Assembly (NCBI GenBank): GCA_038858525.1 | Contig: JAWCFL010000004.1 | Coordinates: 84,451-101,785 of the forward strand | Direction of reading: 5' to 3' | Source of the DNA: Candidatus Jordarchaeales archaeon | GTDB lineage: Archaea; Asgardarchaeota; Jordiarchaeia; Jordiarchaeales; Freyrarchaeaceae | Length of the DNA: 17,335 nucleotides | Part shown: in pieces, positions 8,431-17,322 of the stretch | Numbering within the stretch: the first letter of the stretch is position 1 | Layout: the number at the start of each line of letters is the position of its first letter | The notes under the pieces: model-generated | Seen by the model: only the letters and a program-made list of their open reading frames with translations | Databases searched by the model: none | Told to the model about the DNA's origin: nothing | Program-made: the position numbers and the translations under genes

Positions 8431-8732
8431 CCTTAATCTGAAAAGTTAATATCATGGTTCCTTATTGAAATAAGGGGTGTTCGATCAAATTTTTGTTTTT
8501 TCTATGCGACGTGTTGCTTGAAGGGGGAGCGTTTCATGCATCCAACTCTCTTTCGAAAGGTGTTGCTTTTAACTATTCTTTTCCTTTTTAGTGGCTTTTT
8601 ATCTCATTATGCCATATTGACATAACCTCTATTGCTGTTTGCTTGTGTAATACTTAAATAATATTGAAACCAATACAATATGTTGAGTGTTTTGCTAGGA
8701 AGGGTGTTTGCTTAGCTTAAGAGGTGACATTC

Positions 8733-9530
8733 ATGTCCGTTTCCATACCTAAATATATGCTTATGGTTAGAGTGGAGCCCGGTGATAAGTCTCCGATCCC
8801 CTTCAGTCAGGATGCTATCAATAGTGATTCACTTGTTGTTCTCTTAGACGAGGTGGATGATCGCCTCTACTTGTGGATGGGTAAAAACAGAAGTTTGGTT
8901 GACAAGAGAGCCGCTATGAGGGTTGCGCAGTCTATTATGAAGGGTGGCTTCTCTTATGGGAAGCTACAAGTGGGGCGAAACTTGAAGGAGCTGGTTGAAA
9001 TAGATGAGTCTAGACTTTCTGAGCCTGATGTTAAAGGAAGCTTTGACGCTCTCAACGCCGTTTTTAAGAGGAACTACACGGCCAAAGATAAGATGCTCGT
9101 CGAAGTGGCCGTTGAGGCACCTTCTTCTGCTGTCGAGGCGCCAGCTCCACCAGTTAAGGAAGTAGAGGAGGCTGTTGGAGCCCCGCCGGCTCAGCCTGCT
9201 AGGGAAGCTCCCTCCGCCGCAGTAAAGCCTCGCCCTGAAGCTGTAATGTCTGTTGAAGCGAAGGCTACTGAGGTAGAACCTGAACTCGTGGGGCGAGCTA
9301 AGTTGGGGTTGCTGTTCACTCTTCTTGCAGAAGAGTTCACTGAACTCCTTGTCAGCTGCAAAGTTGAGGAAGGGGTGCCCGTCTTTGAGTTCGAGTCCCC
9401 GGAGGGGCTCATAGCCAAAGTCTCCATTGACGGAAAGGATCTCGTCATCTCTTACGGTTCAAAGTTCGCTGAAAAACGGGACAAAGTTATTTCTAAGCTA
9501 AAGGAGATAATAGGGAAAATTCTGGGTTAA
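8733..9530 (+). CDS. Gelsolin-domain protein: N-terminal gelsolin/villin-like repeat, Pro/Ala/Glu linker and unknown C-terminal domain, 265 aa
   Basis: IPFSQDAINSDSLVVLLDEVDDRLYLWMGKNRSLVDKRAAMRVAQSI matches the gelsolin repeat consensus (LNSxDxFILD..IYxWxG..S...K..A...A..I). ATG at 8733 follows GAGGTGA. Confidence 0.72.
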   Translation: MSVSIPKYMLMVRVEPGDKSPIPFSQDAINSDSLVVLLDEVDDRLYLWMGKNRSLVDKRAAMRVAQSIMKGGFSYGKLQVGRNLKELVEIDESRLSEPDVKGSFDALNAVFKRNYTAKDKMLVEVAVEAPSSAVEAPAPPVKEVEEAVGAPPAQPAREAPSAAVKPRPEAVMSVEAKATEVEPELVGRAKLGLLFTLLAEEFTELLVSCKVEEGVPVFEFESPEGLIAKVSIDGKDLVISYGSKFAEKRDKVISKLKEIIGKILG

Positions 9531-11709: not shown

Positions 11710-11766
11710 GAAGCTTGTATCTTAAAAGTTCCTTGAAGTTTTGCTTTCACTGTGGAGGGGCTTGTG

Positions 11767-12060
11767 GTGAGCGGGAGGTTCAAAATAGTCATTTTTAAGT
11801 CTGAGCGTACTCCCAAGTACTCCCAAGTAGTCAAGACAGTGCGTTCCTCTCTCGAAAAACTCGGTTTGGACCTAGAGGTTGAGGAAGTTGACGTGTCTAA
11901 GAACCCTGAAATGGCTGTTAGGAGCGGAGTAATCTCAACGCCAACAATAGATATAGTTGGTTTGAACTGGCGATTCATAGGGCTACCTACAGAGGACGAA
12001 TTAATAGCTGTTTTAGAGTCATTGAAAGAGGAGGGAGAAAAGCGTGGCAAAGAGGAGTAG
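11767..12060 (+). CDS. Cysteine-less thioredoxin-fold, KaiB-like protein, about 97 aa (start 11767 or 11764)
   Basis: Pattern TP..., VDVSKNPEMA, STPTI, RFIG resembles both KaiB (IDVLKNPQLA, ATPTL, RIIG) and archaeal thioredoxin-like proteins. The protein has no Cys. GGAGGGG precedes the GTG. Confidence 0.7.
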   Translation: MSGRFKIVIFKSERTPKYSQVVKTVRSSLEKLGLDLEVEEVDVSKNPEMAVRSGVISTPTIDIVGLNWRFIGLPTEDELIAVLESLKEEGEKRGKEE

Positions 12061-12838
12061 GTCATCTTCCGGCTTCATGGCGGAACTCAAGGAAAGGATA
12101 ATCTCTGAGGCACGCGTAATAGAGTCACCCGGCGAGAGGACGCCGACGGGAATTCGAGGGTTCGACGAGCTAGTTAGAGGAGGCCTTTTCAAAGGTGCAA
12201 CTTATCTGCTGTCGGGGGTATCGGGGGCTGGCAAGTCGATCTTTTGCCTCGAGTTCCTTTATCATGGCGCAGCAGAGTTCGATGAGCCAGGACTGTACGT
12301 TTCGCTCGAAGAGCACTTGGATAGCATACTTAGGAACGCTAGGAACTTCAAGTGGAACTTGAAAAGCCTCATAGACCGGCAGATGCTAGTGCTGCTGGAT
12401 CTCAGCGTAGTGGCTGTAGGCGAAAAGGCTCTGTCTCTCAACACTGACGTGTTCGCATTGGACGGCCTCTACGCAACAATGGAAAGTGTGATTAAAGAGG
12501 GCGGGATCAAGAGGGTGGTCCTCGACCCGATCTCCGTTCTCTTCTTGCAGTATGGGAACGTAGGCGTAGTTAGGCGTGAACTCAACGTCATTTCGGGCAT
12601 GCTGAAAAGGCACGGGTGCACTTCGATCTTTGTCACAGAAACCGAGTACGGGAAGCCAAGCATAACACGGTTCGGCGTGGAGGAATTCATGGCAGACGGC
12701 GTCTTCCTACTTTACTGGGAACCTGAGGGCGATAAAAGAAGCAGGTACATTGAAATATACAAAATGAGGGGTTCCCCACATTACGAGGGAAAGAAGCGCT
12801 TCTCAATAACCGACAGCGGCATAGTAATCCTCTACTAG
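12044..12838 (+). CDS. Single-domain KaiC-like (RecA-superfamily) ATPase; start 12044 or 12077
   Basis: TGIRGFDELVRGG, Walker A GVSGAGKS, catalytic SLEE, Walker B RVVLDPIS, VEEFMADGV and arginine finger KMRGS. Confidence 0.92.
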   Translation: MAKRSRSSSGFMAELKERIISEARVIESPGERTPTGIRGFDELVRGGLFKGATYLLSGVSGAGKSIFCLEFLYHGAAEFDEPGLYVSLEEHLDSILRNARNFKWNLKSLIDRQMLVLLDLSVVAVGEKALSLNTDVFALDGLYATMESVIKEGGIKRVVLDPISVLFLQYGNVGVVRRELNVISGMLKRHGCTSIFVTETEYGKPSITRFGVEEFMADGVFLLYWEPEGDKRSRYIEIYKMRGSPHYEGKKRFSITDSGIVILY

Positions 12839-12873
12839 CATCATGCAGCAGACTTGCACTTGACTCCGCGAAG

Positions 12874-12881
12874 TTTTATAT
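12874..12881 (+). promoter_or_regulatory. Possible internal TATA box upstream of the fusion gene
   Basis: TTTTATAT in the 138-nt gap between the kaiC-like stop and the ATG at 12977. Confidence 0.3.
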
Positions 12882-12976
12882 GCTCAAAACGTATAACGAA
12901 CGTCTTTAAGGCTACGTTCATGGCTTACAGTGCCTGGTGTGCCGCCCTCAACTCTAAGATGGTCCTGGTGACTCAC

Positions 12977-14116
12977 ATGATAAGGTTGAGGCTTCCGCTC
13001 TTCGACCGTCAGCTGGGTGGGATTCCTGAGTCCTCGAAAAACCTTTTCATGGTTTTCCCCGGCATTGATCCCTCAATACTGGGATTACATGTGGTTAGGG
13101 CAGGCTTAGAAGAAGGATACAAAGTCGTTTACTTTGTGAATAATAAGCCTCCCATAAGTGTGAGGAGGCAGGCTAAGAAGTCTCATCTAAGCTTCGAAGC
13201 ATATGAGCAAAAAGGGCAGTTCATCATGGTAGACGCATACTCCATGTTTAGTGGGGCGGAAAGCCATGAAAAAATCGTAGTTAACCCTTACGATGTTAAC
13301 GCAACGAAGAAGACTTTAGCTGACCTATCTTCAAAGAACACGCTCTTAGTGCTCGACTCGCTGAATAGCCTCTTGGAGTCGTGGGGCGGCAAAGCGGAAC
13401 CATTAACTGACTTTTTGAAGGCTGCTGATGCATCGACCCTAATTGCCCTATTTTCCTCTTGGCTCTACATGGATGAATCCGTTAAGGGAATGGAGAGCCT
13501 CTTCGACGGGGTATTTGAAGTTAAACCCGACCCTCTCCTCATAGTAGAAAACCGGTTTAGAGTAAAAAGGGTTTCCTGGGCTACTGGGGCAGGAGAGCTG
13601 TCCTTCCTCGTGAAGGCAGTTTCACCAAGCGAGCTTAGGGTATACCTTCCAAAAGTGGTTGTCCTCGGGCCGTACAATGCGGGTAAAACCACTCTTGTTC
13701 ATGCTTTAGCTGAAGACGCAGTTAGCGTTGAACGGATGGGCACTACGGTCGCACTCGACCACGGCTCATTGGATTATAAGGGGTTCTACATGGAGCTCTT
13801 CGGCACCCCGGGGCAACCTCAGTTCGAACCAATCCTTGACATGATGATGGATGGAGCTGTCGGATTCATTCTCGTCGTTGATAGCGCCGACGCATCGACC
13901 TTCAATAGAGCTAAAGAGCTTTTCGATAAGTGCGAGGGAAAGGCCCCGATAGTGGTGGCTGCAAACAAGCAGGACTTAAAGTTAGCCATTTCTCCCAGCG
14001 ATCTCAGAACCCGCCTTAATATTCCTTCATCCGTCCCCGTGGTTGGTTGTAGCGCCAAGAACAGGGTTAACGTATTCCTCATACTCGACATTCTCCTAAA
14101 CCTGATCTCCATGTAG
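12977..14116 (+). CDS. Fusion of an inactivated KaiC/RecA-like domain and an MglA-type small GTPase, 379 aa
   Basis: ATG at 12977 follows GGTGA. The N-domain has LPLFDRQLGG and LVLDSLNSL but FPGIDPS in place of Walker A. The C-domain (from about 13651) has GPYNAGKTT, TTVALD, FGTPGQ, NKQD and CSAK. Confidence 0.85.
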   Translation: MIRLRLPLFDRQLGGIPESSKNLFMVFPGIDPSILGLHVVRAGLEEGYKVVYFVNNKPPISVRRQAKKSHLSFEAYEQKGQFIMVDAYSMFSGAESHEKIVVNPYDVNATKKTLADLSSKNTLLVLDSLNSLLESWGGKAEPLTDFLKAADASTLIALFSSWLYMDESVKGMESLFDGVFEVKPDPLLIVENRFRVKRVSWATGAGELSFLVKAVSPSELRVYLPKVVVLGPYNAGKTTLVHALAEDAVSVERMGTTVALDHGSLDYKGFYMELFGTPGQPQFEPILDMMMDGAVGFILVVDSADASTFNRAKELFDKCEGKAPIVVAANKQDLKLAISPSDLRTRLNIPSSVPVVGCSAKNRVNVFLILDILLNLISM

Positions 14117-14129
14117 GGAGGTGTGCTGT

Positions 14130-14492
14130 TTGGAGTTTAGGGGTAAAATTAAAAAACTCTTAATGAAACTTCAGGCATTAGAGGGGGTTGAGGGCTGCCT
14201 CGTAGCAATGAGGAACGGAAGCGTTCTAGAGGCGCTCATGCCCCACGACTTAGATATAGGTAGGCTTGCCGCTATGGCTGCGTCAATGCTTGGAGCCGCG
14301 GAAGTTGCCGCTGAAACAGTCAGGAGAGGGGTAGCCCGCCACTTAACGCTTGAAACTGAAGGCGTAACGTTAATAATTACTGGCGCTGGGTCCAAAGCCT
14401 TCCTGTTAATACTCGCCGCGAAGACCACCACCCCCCACCTGCTTAAGGACCTTGAGGAAGCATGTAAAGCGATCACAGAGTTTTTGCCATAA
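14130..14492 (+). CDS. Roadblock/LC7 (MglB-like) protein, 120 aa
   Basis: EGVEGCLVAMRNG, LAAMAASMLGAA and LTLETEG match the roadblock pattern; TTG at 14130 follows GGAGGTG; directly downstream of the MglA-like domain. Confidence 0.88.
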   Translation: MEFRGKIKKLLMKLQALEGVEGCLVAMRNGSVLEALMPHDLDIGRLAAMAASMLGAAEVAAETVRRGVARHLTLETEGVTLIITGAGSKAFLLILAAKTTTPHLLKDLEEACKAITEFLP

Positions 14493-14517: not shown

Positions 14518-15267
14518 ATGGCGAAGACAGACCTATTAAAGACTGGAATAGAACTGCTCGACCGCCTCCTTGGAGGAGGCATCAATCCGGGCTCCCTATG
14601 CATAGTGGTCGGTGAACCACTAGGTGGAAAGGAACTAATTGCCTTGGAGTTTTTCTGCGAAGGACTAAGACTTGGAGAAGGAGGCATATACGTCACAATG
14701 GTGAATTTCGCCGAGGAAGTGGAATCTGCAATCGCCAGCCGAGGATTAGACCTTTCAGCATACCGCGGCGCCAATCCGAAGTACCGGATAATAGATCTCT
14801 ACCGTCCGACAGTAGATTTCTCCGTTGAGGACAGCGACACTGTGACCTATGTCCCAGCGCCAACAGACCTTGCGGCTCTAAGCTCGAAGATTGTTGATGC
14901 AGCCATGAAGCTCTCACATCTCAGCCGCGTACGCATAATCATAGACTCCCTCTCATCCATCATATCGTTTGCTTCACCCAAGTCCGCTTTAAGGTTCATG
15001 TCCTTCATGAAGGCAAAAGTTCAGCTGTCAAGCAACGTTATCCTAGCAACTCTCGAGCAGAAACTGGCTAACGACGTCGAGACCGAATCAATCCTCCACC
15101 TAGCGAACACACTCATCTTTCTAGAAAAAAATAGGCTTGAAATACGCCGAAGAGGGAAAACACCAGTAGAAGTAACCGTCAAGTTCTCAAATGAAAAAAT
15201 AATAGAAGCCAACCCTCCTAAGAAAACGCAGAAAAACCAGAACTCCAAAAAACCATCGGAACACTAA
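14518..15267 (+). CDS. Degenerate KaiC/RAD55-like RecA-superfamily protein, 249 aa
   Basis: TGIELLDRLLGGG; Walker A altered to GEPLGGKE; catalytic EE replaced (TMVN); IIIDSLSS; Lys/Gln-rich C-terminal tail. Confidence 0.85.
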   Translation: MAKTDLLKTGIELLDRLLGGGINPGSLCIVVGEPLGGKELIALEFFCEGLRLGEGGIYVTMVNFAEEVESAIASRGLDLSAYRGANPKYRIIDLYRPTVDFSVEDSDTVTYVPAPTDLAALSSKIVDAAMKLSHLSRVRIIIDSLSSIISFASPKSALRFMSFMKAKVQLSSNVILATLEQKLANDVETESILHLANTLIFLEKNRLEIRRRGKTPVEVTVKFSNEKIIEANPPKKTQKNQNSKKPSEH

Positions 15268-15642: not shown

Positions 15643-16155
15643 ATGGGGCTCAAAGGGAGAATAGCCTTCCACTTTATGGCTGACAAGATCAACCTTGAAG
15701 CATACATATCCCTTCTAGTGTCGGCTCTAGATTACATTCTCGAAGTGGAGAAAGGTGACGTAAACAAGGCATCCCAAGTCATTTGGAACATGGGCCGGAA
15801 AATAGGCTCTAGAATGCTTGCAAAGTACGCTGAAAGAGTAGGTAAGCATGCTATTGAGTTTTACGAGTTCTCAAAAACATACAACCTTGCGTACTACTTT
15901 TACTTAGGAAAAAGCTACGACAAAATATACGTTGTACCCGAAGAGAAAAAGATAGTCTTTGAGGATTACGATTGCCCCGTTTGTAGGGGAGTGCTGCTAC
16001 CCGACGAGTTAAAGGGAGTGCGGCTCTGCAACATAATTGACGGAATATACACTGAAGTATGCACAGTCAGAGGGTTCGACGCTGAATCGTGGGAAACCAA
16101 ATGTAAAGCATCTGGAGACGAATGTTGCAGACATGAATTACGCCTAAAGGTATGA
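15643..16155 (+). CDS. V4R-domain protein (Bet3/TRAPP-related fold), 170 aa
   Basis: DCPVC, LCNIIDGIY and ETKCKASGDECCRHEL V4R signature; helix NMGRKIGSRML; GGAGG upstream of the ATG. Confidence 0.85.
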   Translation: MGLKGRIAFHFMADKINLEAYISLLVSALDYILEVEKGDVNKASQVIWNMGRKIGSRMLAKYAERVGKHAIEFYEFSKTYNLAYYFYLGKSYDKIYVVPEEKKIVFEDYDCPVCRGVLLPDELKGVRLCNIIDGIYTEVCTVRGFDAESWETKCKASGDECCRHELRLKV

Positions 16156-16579: not shown

Positions 16580-16791
16580 CAAAGTACACCCCTCCAACTA
16601 AGGGATATTGACGTGAAAGGTTAAGAAGATAAATAAAACAGAGAAAATATTCCTGAGTTTACTTCCATTTTTAAATAGTCATTAGGGGAGGAAGTGTTTT
16701 AGGTGGTGATCGGAAGAGTGAATGTTTAAATTTTAAAGTTCCGTCATGTTTCTTGCTGATGGTTCGTCTCCGGGCGAAGGAGGAGAGCGCA

Positions 16792-17322
16792 TTGAACACA
16801 TCAAAGTACAACTTTAAGGTTCTAGTTGTTGGTGACGGGGGGGTGGGGAAGACCAGCCTAACGCTCAGATTTACCACGGGCTCCTTCAAGGAAAACTACA
16901 TGCCGACTTTGGGAGTTAACTTTTACTCTAAAACAGTAGATGTGGAAGGCGTCTTAGTCAAGCTTACGGTATGGGATACAGGGGGGCAGGAACGCTTCAA
17001 ACCATTACTTCCAAACTACTTTAAGGGGGGTCAAGGCTCCCTCGTCGTCTTCGATGTAACAGACTCTGAATCCTTCAAAAGCGTTGAAGGATGGGTGAAA
17101 CAGGTGAAGCATTACTGTGGTGACGTCCCCATTGTCATTGTCGGAAACAAGATTGACCTCTCATCAGAAAGAAAGATAAGCCGCGAGGAGGCTGCGAGGC
17201 TCGCGGACAGGCTTAGCGCACCATACTTCGAGTCATCAGCGAAGGAGAACATAATGGTGAAGGATGTCTTCACATTTCTTGCCTCCCTCATACTAAGGAA
17301 CTCACTTAAAAGAAACGACTAA
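16792..17322 (+). CDS. Rab-like small GTPase, about 176 aa
   Basis: GDGGVGKTS, PTLGVNF, WDTGGQERF, GNKIDL and ESSAK motifs; TTG at 16792 follows AGGAGG; no C-terminal Cys. Confidence 0.95.
   Translation: MNTSKYNFKVLVVGDGGVGKTSLTLRFTTGSFKENYMPTLGVNFYSKTVDVEGVLVKLTVWDTGGQERFKPLLPNYFKGGQGSLVVFDVTDSESFKSVEGWVKQVKHYCGDVPIVIVGNKIDLSSERKISREEAARLADRLSAPYFESSAKENIMVKDVFTFLASLILRNSLKRND

What the first reader, a model, noticed from the sequence alone, without database searches (positions are those of the whole stretch)
12977..14492. Pseudo-KaiC fused to an MglA-type GTPase, followed by a roadblock/MglB gene
Seen: the N-domain keeps the RecA/KaiC scaffold but has lost Walker A, the C-domain has all five G motifs, and a roadblock gene follows 13 nt later. 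Established: MglA-MglB is a GTPase-GAP polarity switch in bacteria, and roadblock domains partner Rag GTPases in eukaryotes. Inference: the dead KaiC domain docks the GTPase onto a KaiC ring, wiring an ATPase timer or sensor to a GTPase switch.
Basis: partly seen in the sequence, partly recalled or inferred. Interest (0 to 1): 0.72.

Follow-up and report, generated by a model that had tools for sequence, protein, structure and literature searches.

The report
Dead-KaiC–GTPase fusion with Roadblock partner
This Asgard archaeon (Candidatus Jordarchaeum) encodes a small G-protein fused to a catalytically dead KaiC-type domain. A Roadblock regulator and a second crippled KaiC-like protein sit next to it, forming a gene module that is widespread in archaea, untested by experiment, and here joined to a KaiB/KaiC-like pair.

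Summary
Gene 12977-14116 encodes a 379-aa protein. Residues 1-215 form a RecA/KaiC fold with the P-loop and catalytic glutamates lost. Residues 226-379 are a complete small GTPase, and a Roadblock gene starts 13 nt downstream.

It is not a chimera. It stands whole in independent assemblies and belongs to a large archaeal family. The GTPase carries the G2 'TT' and G3 'GTPGQ' signature of MglA groups 2-5, not that of bacterial MglA proper.

Among 56 fusion loci from different species, 48 have Roadblock and 48 have a degenerate KaiC-like protein on the same strand. The true KaiC ATPase (12044-12838) and its KaiB-like partner accompany the fusion only in Jordarchaeales. KaiC1 alone also occurs in a small sister clade.

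So 'docks onto a KaiC ring' is at best a lineage-specific add-on. The core is a G-protein switch on a pseudo-ATPase scaffold. Binding was not shown.

This scan has found the same module before in several other genomes. The 2017 paper that defined inactivated KaiC domains was not readable here.

The parts
11752..12060 (+). KaiB-like, cysteine-free thioredoxin-fold protein; overlaps the next gene's start
   Evidence: Pfam Thioredoxin_3 at 2.9e-6 and KaiB at 6e-4. The translation has no cysteine. It is present upstream of KaiC1 in all 11 Jordarchaeales genomes searched.
12044..12838 (+). KaiC1: single-domain KaiC CI-like ATPase with an intact Walker A (GVSGAGKS)
   Evidence: Pfam KaiC at 8.2e-65. 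NCBIfam KaiC model at 1.2e-60. Motif seen.
12839..12976 (+). 138-nt spacer with a TTTATATG TATA-like box (about 12865-12873) and a GGTGA Shine-Dalgarno before the fusion start
   Evidence: Sequence. The box and the Shine-Dalgarno are kept in same-genus relatives. Promoter function is inferred only.
12977..13621 (+). Inactivated KaiC (RecA-fold) domain of the fusion, residues 1-215
13052..13078 (+). Relic of Walker A (VFPGIDPSI); family consensus P-G-[VI]-[DE]-P
   Evidence: In one search (208 family members): P 185, G 132, D/E 185.
13622..13651 (+). Conserved linker strand (PSELRVYLPK; family consensus PGG[LV]RVY[IV]PK) running into GTPase strand 1
   Evidence: Alignments. The AF2 strands are continuous and pTM is 0.88.
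13652..14116 (+). Small GTPase domain, residues 226-379, plus the stop codon
   Evidence: Pfam Arf at 3.8e-15 and Ras at 1.8e-13. The domain model has pLDDT 87.9. Foldseek finds Asgard ArfR1, Arl3, Arl2 and MglA all near E 1e-11.
13667..13690 (+). G1 / P-loop GPYNAGKT
   Evidence: G231 in 208/208 and K237 in 206/208.
13742..13747 (+). G2 threonine pair T256-T257 (in DR[LM]GTTVALDH)
   Evidence: The TT pair is the mark of MglA groups 2-5.
13802..13816 (+). G3 GTPGQ (no aspartate)
   Evidence: 65 of 66 fusions.
13964..13975 (+). G4 NKQD
14051..14059 (+). G5 SAK
14130..14492 (+). Roadblock/LC7 (MglB-like) protein, 120 aa from the TTG at 14130 (123 aa if from the GTG at 14121)
   Evidence: Pfam PF03259 at 1.8e-11. 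PDB Roadblock chains 9jue_D at 3.5e-10 and 7f8m at 2.4e-6. Start context.
14518..15267 (+). KaiC2: degenerate KaiC-like protein (DUF7504/DUF7125 type), P-loop GEPLGGKE; the fusion's family-wide partner
   Evidence: Pfam. BLAST grouping. Family P-loop G-[PE]-P-x-x-G-K-[ED]. On the same strand within 2.5 kb in 48 of 56 loci.

Best explanation
The gene is one component of a conserved archaeal three-gene G-protein module. The module comprises a degenerate KaiC-like protein (KaiC2), a dead-KaiC::GTPase fusion, and a Roadblock protein.

Proposed mechanism:
(1) The C-terminal G domain binds and hydrolyses GTP. All G motifs are intact. This is read from sequence, not assayed.
(2) A Roadblock dimer sits on the switch regions and sets the GTP/GDP state, as MglB does for MglA. 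This is inferred from homology and tight gene linkage.
(3) The N-terminal domain cannot use ATP. Its P-loop has been remodelled into a conserved PG[VI][DE]P and its catalytic EE has become NN. It serves as a RecA-type assembly platform that pairs with KaiC2, so the G domain is held on a pseudo-ATPase scaffold. This is inferred from co-occurrence and from the oligomeric nature of KaiC-family proteins.
(4) Sensors or ATPases encoded alongside feed into the scaffold. In Jordarchaeales the input is a true KaiC CI-like ATPase with a KaiB-like partner. Elsewhere PAS-domain proteins lie beside the module (2 of the 7 loci whose neighbours carried Pfam annotation).

The downstream output is unknown.
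For: The fusion is real and old:
- 804 hits in the first search, with Frey/Jordarchaeales, Thermoplasmatota, Methanosarcinaceae, Methanocellales, Bathyarchaeota and Nanoarchaeota among the named full-length hits.
- 79 clusters at 50% identity with E<=1e-30.
- 56 full-length loci from different species.

The motifs are kept family-wide.

The two domains are predicted as one rigid body: pLDDT 92.9, pTM 0.88. The N-domain matches the hexameric RecA-superfamily ATPase PH0284 and KaiC.

GTPGQ plus TT is the published signature of MglA groups 2-5. The nearest bacterial relatives (Chloroflexota, 38-40% identity) carry the bacterial G1-G2 insert, and 5 of them have Roadblock directly downstream.

Gene linkage: Roadblock 48/56 and KaiC2 48/56 on the same strand within 2.5 kb (44 and 43 within 150 nt). 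The commonest order is KaiC2-fusion-Roadblock, in 28 loci.

All 11 Jordarchaeales genomes keep KaiB-like, KaiC1, fusion and Roadblock in that order. Ten also keep KaiC2; the eleventh contig ends before it.

A 1175-nt contig from a metatranscriptome library spans the fusion-Roadblock junction (13258-14432). This is a weak hint of expression only.
Against: - No physical interaction is shown for any pair.
- No nucleotide-binding or GTPase data exist.
- KaiC2 keeps the P-loop Gly and Lys (K in 47/55), so it may still bind nucleotide and not be a mere scaffold.
- 8 of 56 loci lack Roadblock nearby and 8 lack KaiC2, though some of these contigs are cut short.
- By overall sequence and by fold, the G domain is as close to Arf/Arl as to MglA. 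MglA is not among the 60 best PDB sequence matches.
- Nothing indicates the output.
Confidence: 0.55

Rival explanations
1. One reading: the dead KaiC domain inserts into or stacks on the ring of the neighbouring true KaiC ATPase (12044-12838). ATP hydrolysis or KaiB-like binding on that ring then directly gates the GTPase, and this is the protein's main function.
For: The KaiB-like, KaiC1 and fusion order is kept in all 11 Jordarchaeales genomes. The sister clade of the Jordarchaeales fusions (L040, L044, L046; 100 SH-aLRT) also has KaiC1-type genes beside the fusion, as does L007.
Against: Only 3 of the 56 fusion loci have a KaiC1-type gene on the fusion's strand, so it cannot be the family's general mechanism. 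A 138-nt spacer with a TATA-like box separates KaiC1 from the fusion here, which hints at separate transcription.
Confidence: 0.2
2. The dead KaiC domain is an intramolecular regulator or effector surface for its own G domain (GDI-, GEF- or effector-like). No ring forms, and KaiC2 acts elsewhere.
For: AF2 predicts tight, confident packing of the two domains (pTM 0.88) with a conserved linker strand. The remodelled P-loop is conserved rather than decayed.
Against: This does not explain why KaiC2 is co-encoded in 48/56 loci. The closest solved relatives of the domain are ring-forming ATPases.
Confidence: 0.15
3. The fusion is an assembly or gene-calling artefact that joins two separate genes.
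For: None found.
Against: The frame is open with no stop across the junction. The full-length architecture occurs in hundreds of proteins. Independent assemblies carry it intact.
Confidence: 0.01

Closest known systems
MglA/MglB GTPase-Roadblock switch, specifically MglA groups 2-5 of Wuichet and Sogaard-Andersen 2014 (archaeal group 4; Chloroflexota group 5)
   Same: A Ras-superfamily G domain with G3 GTPGQ and G2 TT. A Roadblock gene lies next door. The nearest bacterial relatives are GTPase-Roadblock pairs.
   Different: It is fused to a 215-aa dead KaiC domain. That study discarded proteins over 240 aa, so it would not have counted these. It lacks the Arg finger, the TVPGQ motif and the G1-G2 insert of Myxococcus/Thermus MglA. 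A third obligatory partner, KaiC2, is present.
Archaeal single-domain KaiC/RecA-superfamily ATPases (PH0284, 2dr3; SSO2452, 2w0m; ArlH/FlaH, 4yds) and the 'inactivated KaiC' (iKaiC) domains of Makarova, Galperin and Koonin 2017
   Same: The fold is the same (TM 0.78 on PH0284). The notion of dead KaiC domains acting as signalling adaptors is cited in PMC5847659.
   Different: The P-loop, its lysine and the catalytic glutamates are absent, and the domain is welded to a GTPase. Whether the 2017 paper lists this fusion could not be checked, because the paper is not held.
Actinobacterial conservon (CvnA-D; Mfp)
   Same: An MglA group 2 GTPase (GTPGQ) works with a Roadblock protein and further non-GTPase partners as a sensor-coupled complex.
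   Different: None of the five operon genes scanned here has a histidine kinase or CvnC-type domain. KaiC-like proteins take the place of those partners.
Cyanobacterial KaiC (CI-CII) with KaiB
   Same: An N-terminal KaiC-type domain is followed by a second P-loop domain, and KaiB-like and KaiC CI-like genes lie upstream here.
   Different: The second domain is a Ras-like GTPase, not a KaiC domain. Superposition on full KaiC gives an rmsd of 12-13 A, so the domain arrangement differs. There is no sign of clock function.
Eukaryotic Rag-Ragulator and Asgard GTPase-Roadblock fusions (Tran et al. 2024, PMC10933270)
   Same: A small GTPase is coupled with Roadblock-fold regulators.
   Different: Roadblock here is a separate gene. 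That paper reports that MK-D1 GTPases are generally not in operons with Roadblock genes, and it does not contain the word KaiC.

Membership tests
MglA family, groups 2-5 (Wuichet and Sogaard-Andersen 2014) | G3 motif GTPGQ, with no conserved aspartate | tested here: met
   G276-T-P-G-Q280 in the window protein. G 206, T 195, P 198, G 204 and Q 191 of 208 family members. 65 of 66 fusions in the loci carry it. The definition was read.
MglA family, groups 2-5 (Wuichet and Sogaard-Andersen 2014) | G2 has a threonine where group 1 has the intrinsic arginine finger (TT) | tested here: met
   T256 in 193/208 and T257 in 201/208.
MglA family, groups 2-5 (Wuichet and Sogaard-Andersen 2014) | Genomic coupling to an MglB/Roadblock gene | tested here: met
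   48 of 56 loci on the same strand within 2.5 kb. All 11 Jordarchaeales loci have it.
MglA family, groups 2-5 (Wuichet and Sogaard-Andersen 2014) | Single-domain protein of 150-240 aa | tested here: not met
   The protein is 379 aa with an N-terminal KaiC-like domain. That study excluded proteins over 240 aa.
MglA proper (group 1: Myxococcus, Thermus) | TVPGQ G3, an arginine next to the G2 threonine, and the bacterial insert between G1 and G2 | tested here: not met
   It has GTPGQ, TT and no insert.
MglA/MglB system | The Roadblock dimer binds the GTPase and stimulates GTP hydrolysis | not testable with these tools
   Needs a biochemical assay.
KaiC family ATPase (PF06745) | RecA-like fold of the KaiC type | tested here: met
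   Pfam at 7.2e-11. Foldseek match to PH0284 at TM 0.78, plus KaiC and FlaH.
KaiC family ATPase (PF06745) | Walker A GxxxxGK[ST] and the catalytic glutamate pair | tested here: not met
   The protein has PGIDP and NN at those positions. The loss is family-wide.
KaiC family ATPase (PF06745) | Hexameric ring | not testable with these tools
   No oligomer was modelled or measured.
Roadblock/LC7 (PF03259), gene 14130-14492 | Match to the domain model above the curated cut-off | tested here: met
   44.1 bits against a cut-off of 23. PDB Roadblock chains match.
Actinobacterial conservon | CvnA histidine kinase and CvnC protein encoded in the operon | tested here: not met
   The Pfam scan of the five operon genes shows neither.

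The most novel reading that the evidence does not exclude
In Jordarchaeales, the dead-KaiC::GTPase fusion, KaiC2 and the true KaiC1 ATPase build one mixed RecA-type ring. The ATP and KaiB-like state of that ring is read out directly as the GTP state of the tethered G domains, with Roadblock acting as GAP or GEF. This would be a KaiBC-type sensor or timer whose output is a small G protein, in a close archaeal relative of eukaryotes.
Probability: 0.12. Interest if true: 0.85.

Novelty: new variant of a known kind. Interest (0 to 1): 0.55.

Why it matters
Archaeal signalling is poorly understood. KaiC-like proteins have been proposed as its hubs, and small GTPases with Roadblock partners are the ancestors of eukaryotic G-protein regulation. 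This module joins the two physically. It is found across Methanosarcinales, Archaeoglobi, Thermoplasmatota, Halobacteriota, many DPANN lineages and one Asgard order, yet it has no experimental description in the papers I could search. It offers a compact, testable system of three to five small soluble proteins. With it one can ask how a pseudo-ATPase scaffold controls a G protein and, in Jordarchaeales, how a KaiB/KaiC pair might feed into it.

Tried and rejected
Complex prediction: I submitted KaiC2, KaiC1 and the N-domain (as partner). The tool returned 'no answer'. The runs scattered and one control scored higher than the complex. It counts neither for nor against any binding.

Walker A regex: a first regex seemed to find an N-terminal Walker A in 26 of 209 family members. 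Inspection of the two such cases among the eight context loci showed that it had hit the GG[IV]PxGKS turn before the P-loop, not a P-loop.

Rank in PDB searches: by rank, 'MglA-type' looked wrong. Sec4, Arl and Arf lead the sequence and profile searches, and MglA is not in the top 60. Foldseek puts MglA level with Arl and Arf. The diagnostic motifs and the Chloroflexota relatives settled the question in favour of MglA groups 2-5.

Locus scan: the search for related loci with the 111-row alignment failed because it had no conserved stretch. A 12-row alignment worked.

Literature: searches for KaiC with GTPase, Roadblock, MglA or LC7 found nothing on this fusion. PDB code 9JUE is in no paper held. 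Makarova et al. 2017 could not be read.

RNA coverage: the parts of the operon without RNA-library contigs say nothing about expression.

Longer gene call: the 398-aa call starting at about 12920 is rejected, because relatives have stops in that stretch.

Full report
WHAT IS THERE

The + strand between 11752 and 15267 carries five closely spaced genes:
- a cysteine-free thioredoxin-fold, KaiB-like protein (11752-12060);
- a single-domain KaiC CI-like ATPase with an intact Walker A, GVSGAGKS (KaiC1, 12044-12838; Pfam KaiC 8.2e-65);
- the gene in question (12977-14116);
- a Roadblock/LC7 gene (14130-14492);
- a second KaiC-like gene (KaiC2, 14518-15267) whose P-loop reads GEPLGGKE.

The genome is an Asgard archaeon. 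Earlier notes of this scan call it Candidatus Jordarchaeum. The best protein hits carry Freyarchaeota or Jordarchaeales names.

The 379-aa product has two domains.

Residues 8-132 match Pfam KaiC at 7.2e-11. By sequence the nearest solved proteins are PH0284 (2dr3, 8.6e-9) and SSO2452. An AlphaFold2 model built on 111 homologues has pLDDT 92.9 and pTM 0.88. Foldseek places its N-domain on PH0284 (E 1.2e-14, TM 0.78 on the target), then on KaiC and FlaH.

The P-loop position reads VFPGIDPSI and the catalytic glutamate pair reads NN. The Walker B Asp-Ser survives.

The C-domain has G1 GPYNAGKT, G2 T256-T257, G3 GTPGQ, G4 NKQD and G5 SAK.

The start at 12977 is right. Close relatives have stops just upstream and share a GGTG Shine-Dalgarno.

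The Roadblock gene most likely starts at the TTG at 14130.

IT IS A FAMILY, NOT A CHIMERA

A word-seeded search found 804 relatives. The best 120 are nearly all 370-415 aa and carry both Pfam families. Their names come from Freyarchaeota, Jordarchaeales, Lokiarchaeia (as labelled), Thermoplasmatota, Methanosarcinaceae, Methanocellales, Bathyarchaeota, Nanoarchaeota and others.

An exhaustive HMMER pass over 1.84 billion representatives gave 79 clusters at E<=1e-30, mostly aligned end to end. The ESM Atlas holds several all-archaeal clusters of 51-194 members with the same make-up.

Independent hot-spring assemblies carry the stretch intact. One 34-kb contig spans 11689-15500 with 12 differences.

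Across 208 family members the loss of the ATPase motifs is ancestral and orderly:
- Walker A is replaced by a conserved P-G-[VI]-[DE]-P.
- The glutamate pair is replaced by N-N-K.
- The GTPase motifs are nearly invariant.

An apparent N-terminal Walker A in some members was a regex artefact.

WHAT KIND OF GTPASE

Ranked by sequence or profile against the PDB, Sec4/Rab, Arl3, Arl1, Asgard Arf-related proteins and Arf1 come first. MglA is not among the 60 listed. By fold, Asgard HodArfR1, Arl3, Arl2 and Myxococcus/Thermus MglA are level at about E 1e-11. Overall similarity therefore does not decide the question.

The motifs do. Wuichet and Sogaard-Andersen (2014, PMC4316618) state that MglA groups 2-5 share GTPGQ in G3 and a threonine in place of the group 1 arginine finger in G2. 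[quoted passage not shown] The fusion family has exactly GTPGQ and TT.

The nearest bacterial relatives (Chloroflexota, 38-40% identity) carry the G1-G2 insert that the same paper gives as the bacterial MglA mark. Five of them have a Roadblock gene directly downstream.

The domain is thus MglA family in the broad sense, archaeal type. It is not the Myxococcus type: it has no TVPGQ, no arginine finger and no insert.

That study removed all proteins over 240 aa, so the fused form fell outside it.

THE CONSERVED NEIGHBOURHOOD

I read seven diverse loci through their called genes. I then scanned 56 full-length fusion loci from different species, using my own HMMs for each partner.

- Roadblock lies on the same strand within 2.5 kb in 48 of 56 loci, and within 150 nt in 44.
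- A KaiC2-type protein does so in 48 of 56, and within 150 nt in 43.
- The commonest order is KaiC2-fusion-Roadblock (28 loci). Next come Roadblock-fusion-KaiC2 (6) and fusion-Roadblock-KaiC2 (4).

BLAST grouping separates three kinds of KaiC-like sequence: true ATPases (KaiC1), degenerate partners (KaiC2) and the fusion N-domains.

The KaiC2 family keeps the P-loop Gly and Lys. It puts Glu or Asp where Ser/Thr should be in 39 of 55 members, and its Walker B Asp is Asn in 20 of 55.

A KaiC1-type gene sits on the fusion's strand in only 3 of the 56 loci, and the KaiB-like gene in 1.

PAS-rich sensor proteins lie beside the module in two of the seven loci whose neighbours had Pfam annotation.

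WITHIN ASGARD ARCHAEA

Among 201 genomes of the phylum, the full-length fusion appears only in the window's own order: 5 of 5 genomes in one family (counting this one) and 6 of 6 in the other. The remaining matching genomes have only stand-alone G domains.

All 11 keep the KaiB-like, KaiC1, fusion and Roadblock order. Ten also keep KaiC2; one contig ends before it.

In a tree of 67 fusions, the Jordarchaeales sequences form one clade (100). That clade is sister (100) to three Thermoplasmata-like sequences (L040, L044, L046), two of which have the order KaiC1-fusion-KaiC2.

This fits a KaiC1-linked subtype that Jordarchaeales share with, or acquired from, such lineages. The tree is only midpoint-rooted, so the direction of transfer is not shown.

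HOW IT MOST LIKELY WORKS

Shown by sequence:
- a competent-looking G domain;
- an N-domain that cannot bind ATP in the normal way but is conserved, remodelled and rigidly packed against the G domain;
- two partners encoded alongside in 86% of loci each.

Inferred:
- Roadblock acts on the G domain as MglB acts on MglA.
- The dead KaiC domain and KaiC2 assemble through RecA-type interfaces into a scaffold that carries the G domain.
- Neighbouring sensors or ATPases supply the input.

In Jordarchaeales the input would be KaiC1 with its KaiB-like partner. An earlier follow-up of this scan predicted that this partner docks where KaiB docks (not retested here).

I put 0.55 on this model. It can only be a lineage-specific layer, given that just 3 of 56 loci have KaiC1 on the fusion's strand. 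An intramolecular-regulator reading gets 0.15.

EXPRESSION

Contigs from a sediment metatranscriptome library cover KaiC1, parts of KaiC2, and one 1175-nt piece across the fusion-Roadblock junction at about 98.7% identity. DNA carry-over cannot be excluded, and a contig does not prove a single transcript. This is a weak hint only.

PRIOR KNOWLEDGE AND NOVELTY

The idea of inactivated KaiC domains as archaeal signalling parts comes from Makarova, Galperin and Koonin 2017, cited in PMC5847659. I could not read that paper. It may well list this fusion.

Nothing else in the searchable library links KaiC with a small GTPase or Roadblock. The Asgard GTPase/Roadblock structural paper does not contain the word KaiC, and it reports that MK-D1 GTPases are generally not in operons with Roadblock genes.

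This scan has already met the same module in several other genomes, with the same reading. My analysis reached it independently before that look-up.

I class it as a new variant of a known kind: an MglA/MglB-type switch with an undescribed pseudo-ATPase tether. It has not been studied experimentally.

Noticed in passing
L025-L037, L094, L095, L099, L106, L109, L110 (stand-alone GTPases of other Asgard genomes): Many stand-alone Asgard paralogues of this G domain read GTPGL instead of GTPGQ, so the catalytic glutamine is replaced by leucine. None has a Roadblock gene within the fetched flanks.
   Followed up: partly
L074 (contig titled Anaerolineales bacterium, 6.6 kb): This contig carries a full KaiC2-fusion-Roadblock module. 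It nests inside Methanosarcinales in the tree and is almost identical to L068, so it is most likely an archaeal contig mis-binned into a bacterial MAG.
   Followed up: partly
window 12839-12976: The 138-nt spacer before the fusion gene holds a TTTATATG box about 105 nt upstream of the ATG, followed by a GC-rich stretch. Both are kept in same-genus relatives. This could be an internal promoter with a conserved leader.
   Followed up: partly
L056 (Halobacteriota MAG): Two fusion genes lie in one 9-kb stretch with four Roadblock genes and one KaiC2 gene, a local duplication of the module.
   Followed up: no
L055, L057 (Micrarchaeota, Aenigmatarchaeota): The fusion is followed by two or three Roadblock paralogues and a convergent KaiC1-type gene. 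No KaiC2 is present.
   Followed up: no
L019, L023, L024 (one Asgard family): Stand-alone GTPGQ GTPases lie next to a KaiC1-like gene on the opposite strand. The GTPase-KaiC association therefore recurs without fusion.
   Followed up: no
window 15643-16155 and 16753-17322: A V4R/TRAPP-like protein (weak Pfam TRAPP hit, 1.5e-3) and a Ras/Rab-like GTPase (Pfam Ras 3.9e-57) lie downstream of the operon. A Ras-like gene also follows the operon in L001 and L038. No V4R/TRAPP family was listed among L001's called genes.
   Followed up: partly
window 8724-9530: A 268-aa ORF has a weak gelsolin-repeat match (2.3e-4, 21.4 bits against a cut-off of 21), an Asgard-type eukaryotic signature protein.
   Followed up: no
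G000 contig C25:22193-22666 and C8:41950-43631: The same genome holds a stand-alone paralogue of the G domain (E 4e-42). It also holds two adjacent KaiC-like genes that match the fusion-family profile (over its N-domain positions) better than KaiC1 or KaiC2 do.
   Followed up: no
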